Source: Candidatus Hydrogenedentota bacterium (lineage in GTDB: Bacteria; Hydrogenedentota; Hydrogenedentia; Hydrogenedentales; SLHB01). Taken from it: a DNA stretch of 50,758 bases. Positions 21,001-36,000 of this stretch are shown piece after piece. Where the stretch lies: positions 1 through 50,758 of the forward strand of contig JARKSN010000065.1 of the NCBI GenBank assembly GCA_029974275.1, written 5' to 3'. Each line of letters begins with the position of its first letter. The stretch's first letter is position 1. The position numbers are program-made.

Positions 21001-24000
21001 ATCGTGACTGGACATTGTGTGATCGAGCAGGACAATGCGGGTTCCCATGGGGGCGAGTTTCTCGTAGAAGTCCAGCGTTCTTGATTCGTCAAGGGTGGGA
21101 ATGACGATGACTGCTTCGTAACGGTCGTTGATCATGGTCTGAACGAGACGCATCTCTTCTTCGTAATTGTTGTAGTCGCAGAGGTGGTGAAGGGTGCGCC
21201 CGGCCTGGCGGGCCTGCTCGGCCACCAGGAGGATCAGGTCTTCGTATTGGACGGAGAAGAAGGGGAAGACAAGGCCCCAGGCGGGTTGCATGGGGCGGAG
21301 ATCGGCCACAAACGATCCTTTTCCAGGTTGTTGGCGAATGAGGCCCTGGGCCTCGAGGAGGTTGAGAACGCGTTTGGCGGTTTCGCGGGCGATGCCGTGG
21401 CGGTGTTGAAGCTCGGTGATGGAGGGGATGCGCTGGCCGGGGATGAGGCGACAGGTCAGGATGTCGTTACGGAGTTGATCGACAAGCTGGCGGTAAATGG
21501 GGACGACGCCTCGTTGGAGGGAGGGCATGGTTCACCTCGTCACATCACTCGGTAAAAATATCACATCACAGTTGGATTCTAGGCATGGGGCCGGGGCTTG
21601 TCAAGCGGTGACTTGAAAATGCCTTGACTGGATTGTGGGGGATGAGGTAACATGGGTCGAATTGTGTGATGTGATGTGATGTGGGGTTTTATGGGGTACA
21701 AAATAGCGCTGAGCGGTAAAGGCGGCGTCGGCAAGTCGACGGTTGCGGCGGTTTTTGCGCATTTGGCCTCACAGGAGGGGCGGCGCGTTCTTGCCGTTGA
21801 TGCGGATCCCGACGCCAATCTCGCGGCGGCATTGGGGATGTCACGCGAGGATCGACGGTGCCTTGTGCCGCTTTCCGAACATCGCGCGCTTGTCGAGGAA
21901 CGCACCGGGGCCAAGGTCAAGCAATACGGTCAGGTGTTCAAGCTGAATCCCGATGTGTCCGACATTGCCGAGAAGGAATCGTCCGAGTTTCGGGGCATTC
22001 ATCTTTTGGTCTTGGGGGCCGTGGAACGCGGCGGTTCGGGATGCGCCTGTCCGGAGAGCACGATGTTGCGGGCGCTGCTCGTGGACGTCGTGCTGTACAA
22101 AGACGATTGCGTCATCATCGACTTTGAGGCGGGGCTGGAGCATTTGGGCCGCGCGACGGCGCAGGGCGTGGATGTCATGGCGGTCGTGGTCGAACCTGGC
22201 GCGCGCGCCATCGAAACCGCGGCGGGCGTTCAGCGCATGGCCGCGGAGATTGGCGTCAAGCGGGTCGCGATCATTGGAAGCAAAATCGCCAGCGATCAAG
22301 ATGAAGCGTTTCTGCGCGATGCGTTCCCGAATGGGGAGTATCTGGGGGGCGTGCCGTATAGCGAGACGATACGCCAGGCGGATCGAGACGGCGTGGTCTT
22401 GTTCGATGTTCTGGACGATGAATTGCGGGAGCGGTTTGTCCGGTTGTGGGATGGGGTGAAGGCGCGAATCGAAGAATAGGGACTTTCGGCACGAAGGCGC
22501 AGATGCAAAGCGGGCCATGGTTTCTTGCTTTTCTGTGCTTCCTCCGTGATCTCTGTGTCCCTGTGGTGAATCTTAAGTGTAAGGAGATAGCGAAATGGAC
22601 GTGAAACCGAAATGCGTGGCAACGGCGATTGGGTCTCTGCCGCATCCGGATGCGGAAAAGGCGCTCGATGTGATTTTGGGGTCGATACCGGACGCGCCCA
22701 TCTGGCCGCAGTTGCCGAAGCTGGGACTGCGCGAACAGATGGAAGTGCAGTATTCCGAAGGTTTGCCGCGCGTCGTGATCGATGAGGCCAAGTCGCGCAT
22801 GTACTTCGACACCAGCGGCGATTATTCTGAAGACCTTGCGACGTTTTATGAAGGCTACATGGCGGCGGAAGAGAGCGGCGACTATTCCGTCGCGGCGATC
22901 AGCCCCGCGTTTTCGGCGGGGATTCCCGCGCTTGAAGGCCGTCTAAAGACACTTGGCGGCACGCGTCCGTTTGTGAAATGCCAGACCACCGGTCCGCTGT
23001 CGTTCGCGTTGACCATTGTCGACGAGAACAAGCGCGCCATCTACTACAACGAGGAATTCATCGACGTCATCGTGAAGGGCTTGGCGATGAAATGCCGGTG
23101 GCAGATTCAGAAGTTCAAGCCGTTCGCGGAAAACGTGATTTGTTTTATCGACGAGCCTATTTTGTCCGCGTTCGGCAGTTCGACGTACGTGTCGGTGCAG
23201 CGGGATGATGTGATTGCCCGCTTGGGCGAGGTCGTCGAGGCCGTTCATGCCGAAGGCGCGTTGGCGGGCGTGCATTGTTGCGGCAACACGGAATGGTCGC
23301 TGTTGGTCGACGCGGGCGTCGATATCGTCAACTTCGATGCCTTCGATTTCGGCGAGACCATCGCGCTGTATCCCGAGCACATCAAGAGGCATCTCGTGGA
23401 AAACAAAAACGCGCTCGCATGGGGCGTGGCGCCGACGAGTCCGAAGATACGCGAAGAGTCCGTCGAGAGTCTCGTCGTGCGATTCGAGCGCATGGCGGAC
23501 AACCTGTCGCAGAAGGCCGGTATCGACAAGGGCATCATTGCGGAACAAGCGCTGATTACGCCGTCGTGCGGAACGGGTTCGCTCGAAGTGCAGGACGCCG
23601 AACGCGTCTTTGCGTTGCTGGGCGAGACGAGCGCAGCGCTGAAACTGAAGTACGGGTTCTAAACAGATTCGGGCCTTATCGGCCTGTTACGGAGGGAGCG
23701 GACATGGGTTTCGACGCGAACGTGAAGCTGACCAAAGCCAATTTCAACGACCTGCCGCCGTTGTGCACCGATGGCGCATGGGGCACTGAGATGCAGAAAC
23801 TCGGCGCGCAGCCGGGGCAGATGTGCGACGTGTGGAACGTCGAACAGCCGGACAAAGTTTTCTCTGTGGCGAAGGGCTATGTCGACGCCGGATCGCAGGT
23901 GATTCTGACGAACACCTTCAACAGCAACCGCATCGTGCTTGCCAAGCATAACATGGCCGATCGCGCGGAGGAGTTGTCGCGGGAAGGCGCGGCGATATCG

Positions 24001-33000: not shown

Positions 33001-36000
33001 GGCCAATCTGCACATCATCCGCATCGAGCCGGGCAACCGCACCACGCGCCACTATGGCATCGCGGTTGACGTCGGCACTACAACCGTCGCGGTGCAACTG
33101 ATCAATCTCACCGTTGCGAAGGTCATGGCCACGCGGACGACATACAATGGGCAAATCCCTTGTGGACTCGATGTCATCAGCCGCATCAACTATGCGCGCA
33201 CGCCCGAGCGTCTCGAAGAATTGCGGAGGCGCGTCCTGACCACGGCCAATGAGTTGATCGCGCAGGCGTCCGAGGCGTGCGACGTGGCGCCAGAGGAGAT
33301 AACGAACGCGGTTTTTTCGGCGAACACGACGATGACGCACCTGTTGCTGGGCATGCAGCCCGAGTATATCCGGCTCGCGCCGTATACGCCGACGGTCATG
33401 GAAATTCCGTATCTCACGGCGAATGAGGTTGGCGTTGCGATCAATCCGGATTCTTGGATTTGTTTTTCGCCGAACAATGGGAGTTATGTGGGAGGAGACA
33501 TAACGGCGGGGCTGCTTTGCACCGATTTGGCGGCGCACGCCGAGGGGATTGCGCTGTTCCTGGACATTGGCACCAATGGCGAGCTTGTGGTGGGCAACCG
33601 CGATTTTTTGTTGAGTTGTGCCTGTTCCGCGGGGCCGGCGTTCGAGGGGGGGGGCATCGAGTGCGGCATGCGGGCGGCGGGCGGCGCGATCGAGCGCGTC
33701 GAGGTCGATCCCGACACCGGCGTCGCGCGGTATGGGACGATCGGCGGTTTGCCGCCGTTGGGCATCTGCGGTTCGGGCATGATCGACTTGTTGGCGAATT
33801 TGTTTCTCTCCGGGTGGATGGACCCTGCCGGGAAGCTTGCGCGGGATCGTTCTTCTCCGGCGATTCGCATGGAGGGCAAGCGCGCCGTTTACACGCTTGT
33901 CGCCGCAGCGCAGAGCGGCACGGGCGCCCCGATCACGATCAGCGAGTTGGACATAGACAACATTCTGCGGGCGAAGGGGGCCATTTATTCCGCGTGCACG
34001 CTGTTGATGAACCAGATTGGCATCGAGGCGGGCGATATGACTCTCGTCTACATTGCGGGCGGATTTGGCCGTTTTTTGCCGCTCGATAGAGCGATTGTCT
34101 TGGGGCTTTTGCCGGATATTCCGCGCGACCGGTTCCGGTTCATTGGCAATTCCTCGCTGACCGGTTCGTATATGGTGGCCGTGTCGCAGGATTTTCGCCG
34201 TCGCCAACTCGACCTTGCGCGGCGAATGACGTACATTGATCTCAGCAACGCGCCCGGATATATGGACGAGTACATGTCGGCGCTTTTTCTGCCGCATACG
34301 GACATCGCGCGCTTTCCGAGCGTTGCCGCGGCGATGGAACGCCGGCGGAAATGACTGCCGGAGGAATAGCCTATGGACAAGCCTACGTGTCCGGGTCCTT
34401 ACCGGAAAGACTGGCATCCGGAGGACATCTTTCTCGTGACGTGTCCGGAGTGCGGAGTGGCGATCGAGTTTTGGAAAGACGACGCGTCGCAGCGTTGTCC
34501 GCAGTGCAAGGCAACCGTCTCCAATCCGCGCGGACAACGCCCATGAGTCCGCCGCCGCGGTGTCCGGGGCAGGATCAGCGCTACTGGAAGCCCGAGGATA
34601 TTTTCATGCTCGGCTGTCCTTGGTGCGGCGCGGAGATCGAATTTTGGAAGGATGAGCCTGTCCGCGTTTGCCGGGCCTGCGCCCGGCAGGTTCGCAATCC
34701 GCGGATGGATATGGGATGCGCCGCATGGTGCGCCTCCGCCGATCAATGTCTGGGGGTGGAGCGGCATCCTCCCTTGCCGTCTTCCGATGGCGGCGATGCG
34801 GATTGTGCGGATTCGCCGTGAGACGGCCTGTCCGCTGCGGTTCGCTTACCGGATAGACGGTTTGCGGCGAAACGCCACGCAGGCGACGCCTGTCAAGAGA
34901 ACGGCAAGAACCGCCAGACCGAGTGCAGAAACGGCGGGAACGCCGGTTTCACCGGGCGCATGCGGGGGGCTTTCGGGGTCGAGGGGGTTGGTTCCTAGGA
35001 CGATTTCGATGCTGTCCGACACGCCGTCGCCGTCGGTGTCCCAGTTATGCAAATCGGTCTCGTTTCCGGGGTAAGGCCATCGCATGGGGAAGACAGGGTC
35101 TACGTGGTCCCACATGCCGTTGGCATTCTCGTCTTCCTGCATATCCAGGAGGCCGTCCCTGTCGGAATCCAGATCGGTGGCCAATAACACTTGGAAGGTC
35201 GTGCTGACTCCGGAGGCAGGGGCAAGGTTTCCGGCGATGTCGCGGGCGCTGCCTGGGCCTATTTGAATGCTGAGGGTTCCTTCCCCGCGTATTTCCGCCA
35301 CGGTCACGGTTCGGGTGGCTGGTCCGGAACCTGATACGAAGGGCGCGCCCGAGGCGGAACCTGTCCTGACAAGCGTGATGTCGCTTGGGGCGAGCGTCAC
35401 GGAGTCGGCGCCGTCGTAGGTGATCTCATAGCTCACGGGCAAATAGCGCGTCCGGTCCGAAGAAGGGATGCCGATAAGCAGGGATGGGGGCGTTTTGTCG
35501 ATCGTGTAGGATTCCCCCGAGGTGAAATCGCCGTTGCCCACGCCCACATCGTTGAGCGCCAAGTTGGTGTCGTCTTGGATGCTGTCGTCGTCCAGCAGAT
35601 CCAGGCGCATCGCGCCGTCGCCTGTGCCTGTGTTGACGCGCACGGTGTAGGTCGCTGCGTCGATTGGCGTGACCGACGCCAGCGAGGTCCCTTCGAGGCC
35701 CGATGCGGTTATGTGAAAGTCGCTTGGATCAACGCCCGAGACCGCATGGGTGAATTTCACCGTGAAATCCACCGAGGACGCATTGGTGGGGTTGTCTCCG
35801 GCGCGGCGAATGTAGCGCACGAACGGCGGCTGGTCGTAGATGAGCTTGAGCGCGAGATCCGCCGTGTAAAACCACCGGTCCCATTCGTACTGGTTCGCGT
35901 CCGCGAGCAGGGCGAGGGCCAAATCTCCCGCATTCAGGAACACGAATTCGCCGTCGGCGTAGACGTCGAACGACCAAGCCGCAATATCGGCCGCCGCCGG

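What a model noticed while it worked through the whole genome (the two positions that open the first line are those of the whole stretch)
21679..34821. AcsE-less CODH/ACS cluster with AcsB-AcsD fusion and two thiol-type methyltransferase-fold genes
The only CODH/ACS cluster of this genome (g03489-g03498) encodes acetyl-CoA synthase fused to the small corrinoid Fe-S protein subunit (g03494, 1244 aa: AcsB 1-725, ~200-aa linker, AcsD 925-1236) and has no AcsE (none in the genome, although MetF, FolD, Fhs and MetH are present). Inside the cluster sit two homocysteine-methyltransferase-type genes: g03490 (355 aa, no Pfam match, MetE/UROD-type barrel, invariant H227-x-C229...D248...C325 = the HCDC zinc pattern of core methionine synthases) and g03491 (stand-alone MetH-type homocysteine-binding domain). 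The same cluster (CooC-g03490-CooC-CooS-AcsBD-AcsC-RACo) recurs in Planctomycetota, Verrucomicrobiota, Lentisphaerota, Acidobacteriota, Spiro [...]
Evidence so far: Pfam/NCBIfam/SwissProt tables; C-terminal 312 aa of g03494 match full-length Moorella CFeSP small subunit 4djd_D 7-317/323, E 9e-90; 120 of 120 best homologues listed are 1113-1298 aa, 119 with the same 4 domains; Pterin_bind in own genome only FolP (C47) and MetH (C310:48344), likewise only FolP-like + MetH-like matches in 5 other genomes with the cluster; g03490: no Pfam at E<=1, 4193 homologues, the 120 listed 63-97% identical, AF2 pLDDT 83.6 pTM 0.87, Foldseek top hits UROD, MetE, M. mazei methyltransferase 4ay7, E 5e-7..2e-5, invariant H227 C228 C229 D248 C325 in 25 seqs. 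Of 80 genome loci with a g03490 relative, 51 extend >=7.5 kb downstream: 50 have CooS, 50 AcsB, 49 the AcsD part beh [...]
(Added by a program. Inside this text positions count along the whole contig: contig position 1 is position 1 of the stretch shown here. "Call 12" and the like, gene names such as g00115 and contig names such as C1 are that model's own, and its searches are not shown. The text may have been shortened before it was handed on; [...] marks where a part breaks off. The agent that wrote the report below was given it as the finding of a first reader that could run no searches.)

Follow-up and report, generated by a model that had tools for sequence, protein, structure and literature searches.

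The report
Folate-free CODH/ACS operon with MesB
This operon encodes a CO-dehydrogenase/acetyl-CoA-synthase machine whose synthase is fused to part of its vitamin-B12 methyl carrier and whose usual folate methyltransferase is replaced by methionine-synthase-type enzymes, so it most likely passes the methyl group of acetyl-CoA straight to homocysteine rather than fixing CO2.

Summary
Window 21676-34821 (+) encodes CooC, a 355-aa MesB-type core methionine synthase, a stand-alone MetH-type homocysteine module, CooC, CooS, one 1244-aa AcsB-linker-AcsD protein, AcsC, RACo and a small Cys-rich ORF.

- **Fusion:** it is not an assembly error. 49 of 51 related loci keep one open frame, and a contig from another study spans the gene without indels.
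- **AcsE:** the genome (100% complete by marker genes) has no AcsE. Only FolP and MetH carry a pterin-binding domain.
- **g03490:** it scores 211-255 bits against 32 MesB-type proteins of Dehalococcoidia and Methanomassiliicoccaceae, above the published 173-bit line. DET0516 itself was not obtained.
- **New here:** in two phylum samples, 7 of 7 fused-type genomes have this MesB subclade in the operon and no stand-alone folate methyltransferase. Classical unfused operons have AcsE beside AcsD and never this subclade. By tblastn, 0 of 80 fused loci versus 13 of 13 classical loci hold an AcsE-like gene.

Best reading: acetyl-CoA methyl goes to the tethered CoFeSP and then to homocysteine. This idea is already published for Dehalococcoides, and no biochemistry exists for this cluster. 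It is a new variant of a known kind. The scan has flagged the same module and fusion on other DNA before.

The parts
20488..21528 (-). GntR-HTH + Peripla_BP_3 regulator, transcribed divergently; candidate regulator of the operon
   Evidence: Pfam. Full-length homologues of 45-62% identity lie beside the cluster in 7 of 80 related loci. Its ligand and its role are not known.
21676..22479 (+). CooC-type nickel-insertion ATPase, first copy
   Evidence: PF01656 CbiA, E 1e-16. It is found next to the MesB-like gene in most related loci. The name CooC comes from context and is not a family assignment.
22595..23662 (+). g03490: MesB-type core methionine synthase (single MetE/UROD-type barrel, zinc site H227/C229/D248/C325)
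   Evidence: No Pfam match. 211-255 bits against 32 MesB-type proteins and 40% identity to the Dehalococcoidales protein at L108:7977-9002. Invariant residues. AF2 pLDDT 97.6. Foldseek finds UROD and MetE.
23701..24606 (+). g03491: stand-alone MetH-type homocysteine-binding/activating module
   Evidence: PF02574, 197.7 bits. Best solved relative is the T. maritima MetH Hcy domain, 1q7m residues 16-286, E 2.9e-38. The GxNC...GGCCG zinc motif is kept in 33 of 33 near-full-length relatives beside the MesB-like gene.
24622..25404 (+). CooC-type nickel-insertion ATPase, second copy
   Evidence: PF01656, E 2.3e-15. Conserved between the methyltransferase genes and cooS.
25391..27346 (+). CooS/AcsA, Ni-CO dehydrogenase catalytic subunit
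   Evidence: TIGR01702, 615.4 bits, above its cut-off of 478. PF03063, 545 bits.
27339..29513 (+). AcsB part of the fusion (residues 1-725), bacterial type with the N-terminal A1 domain
   Evidence: NF040764, 1029.5 bits. Matches 9fr0_A over residues 8-724, E 2e-221.
29514..30110 (+). Linker of the fusion (residues 726-924): disordered Ala/Pro-rich stretches around two predicted helices
   Evidence: AF2 of residues 480-1244: disordered at about 732-799 and 869-899, helices at about 796-840 and 848-871 with pLDDT 50-69. Linker length is 110-251 aa in 49 fused loci. No Pfam match.
30111..31073 (+). AcsD part of the fusion (residues 925-1244), CoFeSP small subunit
   Evidence: NF003376, 362 bits, above its cut-off of 280. 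Residues 924-1235 match 4djd_D residues 7-317 of 323, E 5.5e-89.
31073..32419 (+). AcsC, CoFeSP large (corrinoid and 4Fe-4S) subunit; its start overlaps the stop of the fusion gene by one base (TAATG)
   Evidence: NF003195, 515 bits. The overlap and the AGGAGA at 31060-31065 are read.
32441..34354 (+). RACo/AcsV-type reductive activator of the corrinoid protein
   Evidence: PF14574, PF17651, PF17650 and PF00111. NF040756, 648 bits, below its cut-off of 800.
34351..34821 (+). Small Cys-rich ORF, possibly a zinc ribbon; true start uncertain
   Evidence: No family at gathering score. Weak Zn_ribbon_LysW match, E 0.0096. Residues of about 65-135 recur in 17 of 80 related loci at varying places in the cluster.

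Best explanation
The cluster is a self-contained, folate-independent CODH/ACS module.

**Proposed route.** ACS (the AcsB part) cleaves acetyl-CoA. The methyl group goes to the corrinoid of CoFeSP, which is made of AcsC plus the AcsD part that is tethered to AcsB by a linker of about 200 aa. The MesB-type enzyme g03490 then moves the methyl group from Co(III) to zinc-activated homocysteine, giving methionine. In about half of the clusters a stand-alone MetH-type homocysteine module (here g03491) is also present and is expected to do the same.
- The CO left on ACS is oxidised by CooS.
- RACo re-reduces inactive Co(II).
- The two CooC proteins load nickel.
- MesB takes the place that AcsE holds in classical operons.

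**Shown here.** The gene content, the fusion, the absence of AcsE, the catalytic residues, and the strict either/or pattern of this MesB subclade versus AcsE.

**Inferred.** Direct methyl transfer between this CoFeSP and g03490/g03491, homocysteine as the acceptor, and the net direction from acetyl-CoA to methionine.
For: **1. g03490 belongs to the MesB family.**
- It scores 211-255 bits against 32 proteins from the taxa in which MesB was defined.
- It has the HCDC zinc ligands with spacing +2, +19, +77, against +2, +19, +76 in MesB. Ser14 and Asp186 match two of the three homocysteine-binding positions.
- MesB of D. mccartyi uses methylcobalamin and not methyl-THF in vitro, and was proposed to take methyl from AcsCD (PMC7005905, passages; PMC7857596).

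**2. Either/or pattern with AcsE.**
- In the window's own phylum, 13 of 135 genomes have AcsB. The 5 fused-type genomes all have the g03490 subclade (69-78% identity) on the same contig, and none has a stand-alone MeTr.
- The 8 unfused-type genomes have no g03490 relative, and all have an NF005719 match beside or near the acs genes on the same contig.
- In a Planctomycetota sample, 75 of 401 genomes have AcsB. The two fused-type genomes have the subclade (74% and 77%) and only MetH-type NF005719 matches. 64 of the 75 have a match over the cut-off, many of them beside AcsD.
- tblastn with six MeTr/AcsE proteins hits 0 of 80 fused loci and 13 of 13 classical loci.

**3. The module is self-contained.**
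- No other gene family recurs in more than 7 of 80 loci.
- The tree of 46 MesB-like orthologues mixes phyla: at least 3 changes each for Planctomycetota, Spirochaetota and Acidobacteriota on well-supported branches.

**4. The fused type is one clade** in both the AcsB and the AcsC tree (16 of 16 rows, SH-aLRT 99 and 98). Its CoFeSP parts differ more from the classical ones (AcsC 32-44%, AcsD 41-48% identity) than AcsB does (51-62%).

**5. Some hosts have no other candidate.** 5 of 49 genomes with the cluster show no MetH-type frame, no MeTr-like protein and no PF01717 match. The completeness of these MAGs is not known.

**6. g03491 keeps the MetH zinc cysteines**.
Against: - No biochemistry exists for this subclade.
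- This genome and 35 of 49 genomes with the cluster also have a MetH-type methionine synthase, so the route would be a second one.
- Price et al. warn that MesB-like proteins in bacteria with other methionine synthases 'might have another function'.
- Keeping a nickel, iron-sulfur and corrinoid machine of about 13 kb only for methionine is costly.
- Two homocysteine methyltransferases side by side look redundant.
- No SAM or cobalamin riboswitch was found in the window or in 11 related loci.
- 5 of 49 genomes with the cluster do hold a generic methyl-THF:corrinoid methyltransferase over the NF005719 cut-off elsewhere in the genome, and 7 more have weaker ones.
- The direction of methyl flow cannot be read from sequence.
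- DET0516 itself was not available for the published membership test.
Confidence: 0.6

Rival explanations
1. Reverse flow. The module makes acetyl-CoA from a thioether methyl donor (methionine or another S-methyl compound demethylated by g03490/g03491), CO2 reduced by CooS, and CoA. This would be a folate-free, methylotrophic branch of acetogenesis that also serves fermenters as an electron sink.
For: - CooS is always present in the cluster. From the passages read, D. mccartyi, which only cleaves acetyl-CoA, has no CODH, so CODH is not needed for cleavage alone.
- Most hosts already have MetH.
- The ACS reactions are described as reversible under physiological conditions (10.64898/2026.07.07.736967).
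- From my own knowledge, not tested here: UROD-fold methyltransferases such as MtsA can methylate corrinoid proteins from dimethylsulfide.
- The hosts are found in wastewater and anaerobic digester metagenomes.
Against: - Ser14 and Asp186, which bind the amino-acid end of homocysteine in MetE and MesB, are kept, so the substrate is probably homocysteine/methionine and not a small thioether.
- From textbook knowledge, not computed here: methionine is a poor methyl donor to Co(I).
- CooS is equally useful for removing the CO made by cleavage.
- No gene for using the homocysteine that would be left over recurs beside the cluster.
Confidence: 0.13
2. This is an ordinary Wood-Ljungdahl CODH/ACS that still takes its methyl group from methyl-THF by an unrecognised route: the CoFeSP itself (as in archaea), the pterin module of MetH, a distant MeTr elsewhere, or an AcsE on an unassembled piece. 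MesB would then be only a side consumer of methyl-CoFeSP.
For: - MetF, FolD and Fhs are present.
- Archaeal CoFeSP does the pterin methyl transfer without a separate enzyme (10.64898/2026.07.07.736967).
- The AcsD part passes the TIGR00381 cdhD cut-off, and NF003375 aligns from residue 882, inside the linker.
- 12 of 49 genomes with the cluster have some MeTr-like stand-alone protein.
- Price et al. place MesB in many organisms with a complete pathway. In the Planctomycetota sample, 52 genomes with AcsB have a distant MesB (32-44% identity) away from the cluster, and 64 of the 75 AcsB genomes have a match over the NF005719 cut-off.
Against: - No MeTr-like gene in 0 of 80 fused loci, against 13 of 13 classical loci.
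- No stand-alone MeTr in any of the 7 fused-type genomes of the two phylum samples.
- 37 of 49 genomes with the cluster have only FolP- or MetH-type pterin domains.
- The own genome is 100% complete by marker genes.
- MetF lies among glycosyltransferase and TPR genes, and Fhs-FolD next to an asparagine-synthase-like gene. Neither sits in a pathway operon.
- The AcsD part is closest to the Moorella small subunit, and that bacterial CoFeSP needs AcsE.
Confidence: 0.2
3. The 1244-aa frame is an artefact (a lost stop codon, a frameshift or a chimeric assembly), and AcsB and AcsD are really separate proteins.
For: - The window comes from a 342-contig assembly with 3.58% estimated contamination.
- Two related loci, L017 and L057, have the parts out of frame.
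Against: - 49 of 51 loci from many assemblies keep one frame with no stop, although linkers differ in length from 110 to 251 aa.
- A contig from another study spans the whole gene with 0 gaps, and other runs bridge both junctions.
- L017 and L057 show many frameshifts in all their genes.
Confidence: 0.02

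Closest known systems
MesB / core-MetE of Dehalococcoides mccartyi (DET0516, cbdbA481) with AcsB and AcsCD (Deobald 2020, PMC7005905; Price 2021, PMC7857596)
   Same: - Single-barrel zinc enzyme without a folate domain.
- HCDC zinc ligands at nearly the same spacing.
- A genome with AcsC/AcsD but no AcsE.
- The proposed flow: acetyl-CoA methyl to CoFeSP to homocysteine.
   Different: - Only about 40% identity to a Dehalococcoidales orthologue; g03490 sits in a compact subclade of its own.
- Here mesB lies inside the operon, CooS is present, AcsB and AcsD are one chain, and the host keeps MetF and MetH.
- In Chloroflexota the mesB gene is not clustered with acs genes: 0 of the Chloroflexota-labelled loci among L089-L168 show such a cluster. 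L168, whose title gives no phylum ('Candidatus Aquidulcis sp.'), has cooS and the start of acsB about 4.5 kb upstream of mesB.
mesB-cooC / acsB-acsD-acsC / RACo clusters of Methanomassiliicoccales-type archaea (Price 2021, Fig 3B legend and text)
   Same: mesB lies next to cooC, RACo and acsB-acsD-acsC in that gene order (L103, L146, L157, L159, L163, L166). In the AcsC tree the fused type falls on the same side as these archaea (SH-aLRT 92, midpoint root).
   Different: - AcsB and AcsD are separate genes in 6 of 6.
- No cooS was seen in those loci.
- Identity to the window's proteins is 33-55%.
- In the AcsB tree the fused type is nested among bacterial classical AcsB instead.
Classical bacterial CODH/ACS with free CoFeSP and AcsE (Moorella thermoacetica, Carboxydothermus hydrogenoformans; PDB 1oao, 9fr0, 4djd)
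   Same: All core parts are present and full length: CooS, AcsB with the A1 domain, AcsC, AcsD, RACo and CooC.
   Different: - No AcsE.
- AcsD is fused to the C-terminus of AcsB through 110-251 aa.
- The gene order differs. Most of the 13 classical loci read cooS-acsB-acsC-RACo-cooC-acsD-acsE. The fused type reads cooC-mesB-(hcyMT)-cooC-cooS-acsBD-acsC-RACo.
Archaeal ACDS, in which CdhD carries an N-terminal disordered region with an oligomerising helix (bioRxiv 10.64898/2026.07.07.736967)
   Same: - No separate pterin methyltransferase.
- A disordered stretch with a helix precedes the AcsD/CdhD barrel.
   Different: - ACS here has the bacterial A1 domain.
- The disordered stretch is a covalent tether to ACS, not a free N-terminus.
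- I have no evidence that the linker helix oligomerises or that this CoFeSP binds a pterin.
MetH (cobalamin-dependent methionine synthase) and its split forms
   Same: g03491 is a full homocysteine-binding barrel with the zinc cysteine triad. From my own knowledge, the isolated MetH Hcy module takes methyl from methylcobalamin.
   Different: There is no pterin, B12 or activation domain in the chain. The only corrinoid protein encoded nearby is CoFeSP.

Membership tests
MesB core methionine synthase (Price et al. 2021) | phmmer score of at least 173 bits (130 bits in the reference-proteome survey) to DET0516 of D. mccartyi | tested here: inconclusive
   DET0516 itself could not be obtained. As a proxy, g03490 scores 211-255 bits against 32 of 33 MesB-type proteins from Dehalococcoidaceae-family genomes, a Dehalococcoidales MAG and a Methanomassiliicoccaceae MAG. 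The 33rd is a paralogue and scores 120 bits.
MesB core methionine synthase (Price et al. 2021) | Zinc ligands His-x-Cys ... Asp/Glu ... Cys (MesB 214, 216, 235, 311) | tested here: met
   H227, C229, D248 and C325 are invariant in 46 orthologues. They are present in 131-134 of 135 wider relatives.
MesB core methionine synthase (Price et al. 2021) | Homocysteine-binding Ser and Asp (MesB 15 and 177; the third position, 69, is variable) | tested here: met
   S14 is present in 125 of 135 and D186 in 131 of 135 relatives. Both are invariant in the subclade.
MesB core methionine synthase (Price et al. 2021) | Single barrel without the N-terminal folate-binding domain of MetE | tested here: met
   355 aa, one barrel of alternating strands and helices in the AF2 model. 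There is no Meth_synt_1 or Meth_synt_2 match.
MesB core methionine synthase (Price et al. 2021) | Genome encodes both CoFeSP subunits | tested here: met
   AcsC and the AcsD part lie in the same operon.
MesB core methionine synthase (Price et al. 2021) | Uses methylcobalamin or a methyl-corrinoid protein, not methyl-THF, to methylate homocysteine | not testable with these tools
   This needs an enzyme assay.
Classical bacterial CODH/ACS-CoFeSP-AcsE system | AcsE (methyl-THF:CoFeSP methyltransferase) present | tested here: not met
   Own genome: PF00809 and NF005719 match only FolP and MetH. No MeTr-like gene in 0 of 80 related loci.
Classical bacterial CODH/ACS-CoFeSP-AcsE system | CoFeSP small subunit is a separate polypeptide | tested here: not met
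   It is fused to AcsB in one 1244-aa frame.
Classical bacterial CODH/ACS-CoFeSP-AcsE system | CooS/AcsA, AcsB with the A1 domain, AcsC, RACo and CooC present | tested here: met
MetH homocysteine-binding domain (PF02574) | Pfam match above the gathering score, and the zinc cysteine triad | tested here: met
   197.7 bits against a cut-off of 22. The GANC and GGCCG motifs align with those of T. maritima MetH.
MetH (full enzyme) | Pterin-binding, B12-binding and activation domains in the same chain | tested here: not met
   g03491 is 301 aa and carries PF02574 only.

The most novel reading that the evidence does not exclude
The fused AcsB-AcsD/MesB operon is a laterally mobile, folate-free variant of the acetyl-CoA pathway. 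Its covalently tethered corrinoid protein trades methyl groups only with thiol methyltransferases, and it can run towards acetyl-CoA using S-methyl donors plus CO2. Hundreds of heterotrophic anaerobes in more than a dozen phyla would then own a thioether-fed acetyl-CoA synthase. In these lineages an acsB gene would signal neither CO2-fixing acetogenesis nor mere methionine synthesis.
Probability: 0.13. Interest if true: 0.85.

Novelty: new variant of a known kind. Interest (0 to 1): 0.6.

Why it matters
- **Reading of acsB in surveys.** As far as I know, acsB and cooS are widely used to infer the Wood-Ljungdahl pathway, acetogenesis or carbon fixation in metagenome-assembled genomes. This operon type was confirmed in the 80 best-matching loci, from bins labelled as Planctomycetota, Hydrogenedentota, Verrucomicrobiota, Lentisphaerota, Spirochaetota, Acidobacteriota, Bacteroidota, KSB1, Bacillota and others (502 candidate stretches matched in all). 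It has no link to folate-bound C1 units, so such inferences would be wrong for these organisms.
- **A test of a published proposal.** The operon offers a clean natural experiment for the proposal that core methionine synthases draw methyl groups directly from CoFeSP. Here the two partners are co-transcribed, and AcsE is absent from the operon and mostly absent from the genomes.
- **A handle for structural work.** The natural AcsB-AcsD tether is a ready-made stabilised ACS-CoFeSP pair. It could help capture the methyl-transfer state of this enzyme.

Tried and rejected
1. **Reaching a named Dehalococcoides genome.** A remembered 16S primer hit only five unrelated records. DET0516 was never obtained.
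2. **Names for MesB relatives.** The listing of cluster members on ten distant relatives gave no useful names or accessions.
3. **The published numbering as a search key.** S15, W69, D177, H214, C216, D235, C311 found no 7-of-7 match among the 154 stored proteins, the 80 loci L089-L168 or the 33 proteins examined. The best was 6 of 7 (L108).
4. **Riboswitches.** Rfam at gathering score on the window and 11 related loci (282 kb) found only two tRNAs.
5. **Expression.** No RNA holder was listed.
6. **Complex prediction (AcsC alignment A4 with MesB alignment A3).** Direct binding is therefore untested.
BLASTP of this window's linker against its AcsD part gives E 39. Not seen here.
8. **Further conserved neighbours.** None recurs in more than 7 of 80 loci.
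The five Anaerolineae-labelled genomes I looked at have separate AcsB and AcsD, so this remains untested.
10. **G471 in the Planctomycetota sample.** It has a 70%-identical AcsB fragment at a contig end, a second AcsB piece, two MeTr matches and no g03490 relative. It could hold two clusters or a mis-binned contig, and I left it unclassified.
11. **NF040758, the specific AcsE model.** None of the 18 stand-alone proteins tested reached it. I did not check whether the classical AcsE proteins of these phyla reach it either, so I rely on NF005719 and on adjacency instead.

Full report
**What is there.**

On the + strand between 21676 and 34821 lie ten genes with short gaps or overlaps. Pfam and NCBIfam identify them as follows.

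| Coordinates | Gene | Main evidence |
|---|---|---|
| 21676-22479 | CooC-type ATPase | PF01656 |
| 22595-23662 | g03490, 355 aa | no Pfam match; NF002119 'methionine synthase' at 20 bits only |
| 23701-24606 | g03491 | PF02574, 197.7 bits; start read |
| 24622-25404 | second CooC-type ATPase | PF01656 |
| 25391-27346 | CooS | TIGR01702, 615 bits |
| 27339-31073 | AcsB-linker-AcsD, 1244 aa | four Pfam domains |
| 31073-32419 | AcsC | NF003195, 515 bits |
| 32441-34354 | RACo | four RACo/Fer2 domains |
| 34351-34821 | 156-aa Cys-rich ORF | no family |

The stop of the 1244-aa gene and the start of acsC share one base (TAATG), with AGGAGA eight bases upstream. The surroundings are ordinary heterotroph genes, and MetH starts near 48.3 kb of the same window.

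**The fusion is real.**

- Residues 8-724 match full-length acetyl-CoA synthases (9fr0_A, E 2e-221).
- Residues 924-1235 match residues 7-317 of the 323-residue Moorella CoFeSP small subunit (4djd_D, E 5.5e-89).
- No solved chain covers both parts.
- Among the 80 best loci found with g03490 in one-genome-per-species contigs, 51 contain both the end of AcsB and the start of AcsD. In 49 of these the two are in one frame with no stop, although the linker varies from 110 to 251 residues.
- The two exceptions, L017 and L057, have frameshifts in most of their genes.
- A 9139-base contig of a run from a different study covers 27339-31073 with 125 substitutions and no gap. Contigs of other runs bridge both junctions.
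- An AF2 model of residues 480-1244 (40-sequence alignment, mean pLDDT 70.5) shows disorder at about 732-799 and 869-899. Between these lie two helices at about 796-840 and 848-871 with pLDDT 50-69.
- The linker has no Pfam match and no detectable similarity to the AcsD part.

**No AcsE.**

The assembly (4.38 Mb, 342 contigs) is rated 100% complete with 3.58% contamination.

- PF00809 matches only a 288-aa FolP-like frame and MetH.
- NF005719, the methyl-THF:corrinoid/iron-sulfur protein methyltransferase model, matches only MetH at 114 bits.
- tblastn with six MeTr/AcsE-type proteins taken from other genomes hits only MetH.
- MetF, Fhs and FolD exist. They lie among unrelated genes.

**g03490 is a MesB-type core methionine synthase.**

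*Size of the family.* HMMER against 1.84 billion cluster representatives finds 2020 relatives at E<=1e-3. The best 150 are mostly 340-370 aa and 35-47% identical. None of 30 tested has a Pfam match above the gathering score.

*Conserved residues.* In an alignment of 135 of them, S14, D186-E187-P188, H227, C229, D248 and C325 are kept in 125-135 sequences.

*Published definition.* Price et al. (PMC7857596; passages and section 8 read) give 214, 216, 235, 311 as the zinc ligands and 15, 69, 177 as the homocysteine-binding positions of MesB. g03490 has the same residues at 227, 229, 248, 325 and at 14 and 186.

*Taxa of the relatives.* A relative chosen for similar numbering (P0058) led to 80 loci that are mostly labelled Chloroflexota (Dehalococcoidia, Anaerolineae), with some Omnitrophota, Planctomycetia and Methanomassiliicoccales-type archaea. 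Dehalococcoides is where MesB was characterised, and Price et al. name Methanomassiliicoccales as MesB holders. One Dehalococcoidales protein (L108:7977-9002) matches six of the seven published positions with identical numbering and is 40% identical to g03490 (238 bits).

*Score test.* g03490 scores 211-255 bits against 32 of the 33 proteins collected from a Dehalococcoidaceae-family sample, that MAG and a Methanomassiliicoccaceae MAG. The 33rd, a paralogue, scores 120 bits. The published line is 173 bits to DET0516. I could not obtain DET0516, so formal membership is very likely but not shown.

*Fold.* The AF2 model (pLDDT 97.6) is a MetE/UROD-type barrel. Foldseek finds UROD at E 4e-7, several MetE C-terminal barrels, MesD 3rpd_B and the M. 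mazei methyltransferase 4ay7.

**g03491.**

Its best solved relative is the homocysteine barrel of T. maritima MetH (1q7m residues 16-286, E 2.9e-38). The GxNC and GGCCG zinc motifs are aligned.

A PF02574 gene lies directly beside the MesB-like gene in 40 of 80 loci, or 26 of the 53 loci with at least 2.5 kb on both sides.
- 9 lie downstream, at 59-73% identity to g03491.
- 31 lie upstream, at 33-47% identity.
- All 33 near-full-length copies keep both motifs.

**The key comparison: this MesB subclade or AcsE, never both.**

*The window's own phylum.* The collection holds 135 genomes, and 13 of them have AcsB.
- Five are of the fused type: G000, G204, G153, G212 and G213. In G213 the frame is split into 846- and 578-aa pieces.
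- All five have a g03490 orthologue (69-78% identity) a few kb upstream on the same contig.
- Their only NF005719 match is MetH.
- Eight have AcsB of 47-59% identity and a separate AcsD frame (235-592 aa; 322-377 aa in six of them, one cut at a contig end). None has a g03490 relative at E<=1e-5.
- All eight have a stand-alone NF005719 match on the same contig as their acs genes, directly beside AcsD in five of them. Scores are 128 bits for one cut at a contig end, and 248-284 bits for the others.

*A sample of 401 Planctomycetota-side genomes.* 75 have AcsB.
- Two are clearly of the fused type, G065 and the fragmented G265. These two have the subclade (77% and 74% identity) next to the cluster.
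- 52 others have a MesB of only 32-44% identity elsewhere in the genome.
- NF005719 is over its cut-off in 64 of the 75, many of them right beside AcsD. G065 and G265 match only within frames of 1157 and 897 aa, which are MetH-type.
- G471 is ambiguous and was left out of the classification.

*Direct check of the loci.* tblastn with six MeTr/AcsE proteins hits 0 of the 80 fused-type loci and 13 of 13 classical loci.

*49 genomes that carry the cluster.*
- 37 have only FolP- or MetH-type pterin domains.
- Three more have a DHPS-like paralogue, counted within the 37.
- 12 have some stand-alone MeTr-like protein at 69-325 bits to NF005719. Six of these proteins, in five genomes, are over the cut-off.

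These genomes are kin and were partly defined through the feature, so the counts describe a pattern and are not a statistical test.

**A mobile, self-contained module.**

- Outside the cluster genes, no family recurs in more than 7 of 80 loci.
- The most frequent neighbour is a GntR-HTH/Peripla_BP_3 regulator homologous (45-62% identity) to the window's gene at 20488-21528.
- In a tree of 46 MesB-like orthologues, the labels Planctomycetota, Spirochaetota and Acidobacteriota each need at least three changes on well-supported branches. MAG labels are the submitters' own.
- In trees with 13 classical and 5 archaeal mesB-linked clusters, the fused type is one clade for AcsB (16 of 16 rows, SH-aLRT 99) and for AcsC (16 of 16, SH-aLRT 98).
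- The AcsB clade is nested among classical bacterial AcsB (98). The AcsC clade falls on the side of the Methanomassiliicoccales-type sequences (92, midpoint root only).
- Against the classical clusters, the window's AcsB is 51-62% identical, but AcsC only 32-44% and AcsD 41-48%. This fits a carrier that has changed partner, but it is an inference.
- In the archaeal clusters AcsB and AcsD are adjacent but separate in 6 of 6.

**How it most likely works.**

*From the literature.* Deobald et al. (PMC7005905; passages read) showed that the D. mccartyi enzyme uses methylcobalamin and not methyl-THF. They proposed the route acetyl-CoA to AcsB to AcsCD to core-MetE to methionine, with CO released. 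Price et al. extended this to the MesB family.

*The window's operon.* It is the most complete genetic statement of that route. ACS, both CoFeSP subunits, the activator RACo, the nickel chaperones, a CODH to burn the CO, and the methionine-forming enzyme or enzymes sit in one transcription unit. The folate enzyme is gone.

*Confidence.* I put 0.6 on this reading.
- The reverse direction (thioether methyl plus CO2 to acetyl-CoA) stays open at 0.13.
- A hidden folate link stays open at 0.2. Archaeal CoFeSP needs no AcsE, as stated in the 2026 preprint 10.64898/2026.07.07.736967 (passages read).

*Against the biosynthetic reading.*
- 35 of 49 genomes with the cluster, and this one, have MetH.
- No SAM or cobalamin riboswitch was found.
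- Two homocysteine enzymes look redundant.

*For the biosynthetic reading.* Five of the 49 genomes show no other candidate methionine synthase. The completeness of these MAGs is unknown.

**Novelty.**

- The enzyme family, its proposed partner and its clustering with acsC/acsD in methanogens are published.
- My searches found no paper describing an AcsB-AcsD fusion or this bacterial operon. The searches were: 'AcsB, AcsD, fusion'; 'acsE, Planctomycetes, acsB, lack'; 'acetyl-CoA synthase, corrinoid iron-sulfur protein, fused, small subunit'; 'Wood-Ljungdahl, acsE, missing, Phycisphaerae'; and 'MesB, acetyl-CoA synthase' from 2021 on.
- For those searches I saw listings only, apart from passages of two hits. 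Subscription journals are outside that library, and supplements were not read.
- The 2026 ACDS preprint surveys ACS domain architectures. In the passages I saw, it mentions prismane fusions and terminal extensions but no AcsD fusion.
- Earlier agents of this scan flagged the same module six times and the fusion eight times on other genomes. My results agree with them. They add the fused-plus-MesB versus unfused-plus-AcsE contrast and the proxy membership test.

**Verdict.** A real, conserved and widely transferred variant of a known system: a new variant of a known kind, with interest 0.6.

Noticed in passing
window 20488-21528 (-): A GntR-HTH + Peripla_BP_3 regulator, divergent from the operon, has full-length homologues (45-62% identity) beside the same cluster in 7 of 80 loci labelled as several phyla. 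An AraC + PocR-domain regulator recurs in 6 other loci. Either could be a dedicated regulator whose ligand would reveal the operon's purpose.
   Followed up: partly
window 34351-34821 (+): A small Cys-rich ORF with a weak zinc-ribbon match has a core of about 70 residues that recurs in 17 of 80 clusters. Its position varies: after RACo, before cooC, or between mesB and cooC. Its function is unknown.
   Followed up: partly
window 48344-50758 (+), runs off the end: A full-length MetH-type methionine synthase (1134-aa open frame) lies only about 13 kb downstream of the MesB-containing operon, so the genome has two routes to methionine on one contig.
   Followed up: partly
G322:C3:47442-49673, G389:C233:2664-4886, G277:C155:9217-11427: Three Planctomycetota-side genomes have a classical-type AcsB (54-55% identity) inside an open frame of about 1200 aa without stops, although their AcsD is a separate gene. 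AcsB may be fused to something else there.
   Followed up: no
G092, G095, G106, G112 (loci L055, L061, L074, L082): These genomes with the cluster lack a MetH-type long frame. They have an upstream-type PF02574 gene in the cluster and a stand-alone MeTr-like gene elsewhere. The PF02574 gene might double as the homocysteine module of a split MetH.
   Followed up: no
window 485-565 (-) and 642-713 (-): Two tRNA genes (Rfam RF00005, 59.6 and 69.7 bits).
   Followed up: no
L269 (G649:C7:365000-374287): An Anaerolineae-labelled genome has the order cooS-acsB-acsD-acsC with AcsB and AcsD adjacent but separate, together with an AcsE-like gene. This is the gene order from which a fusion could arise.
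   Followed up: no
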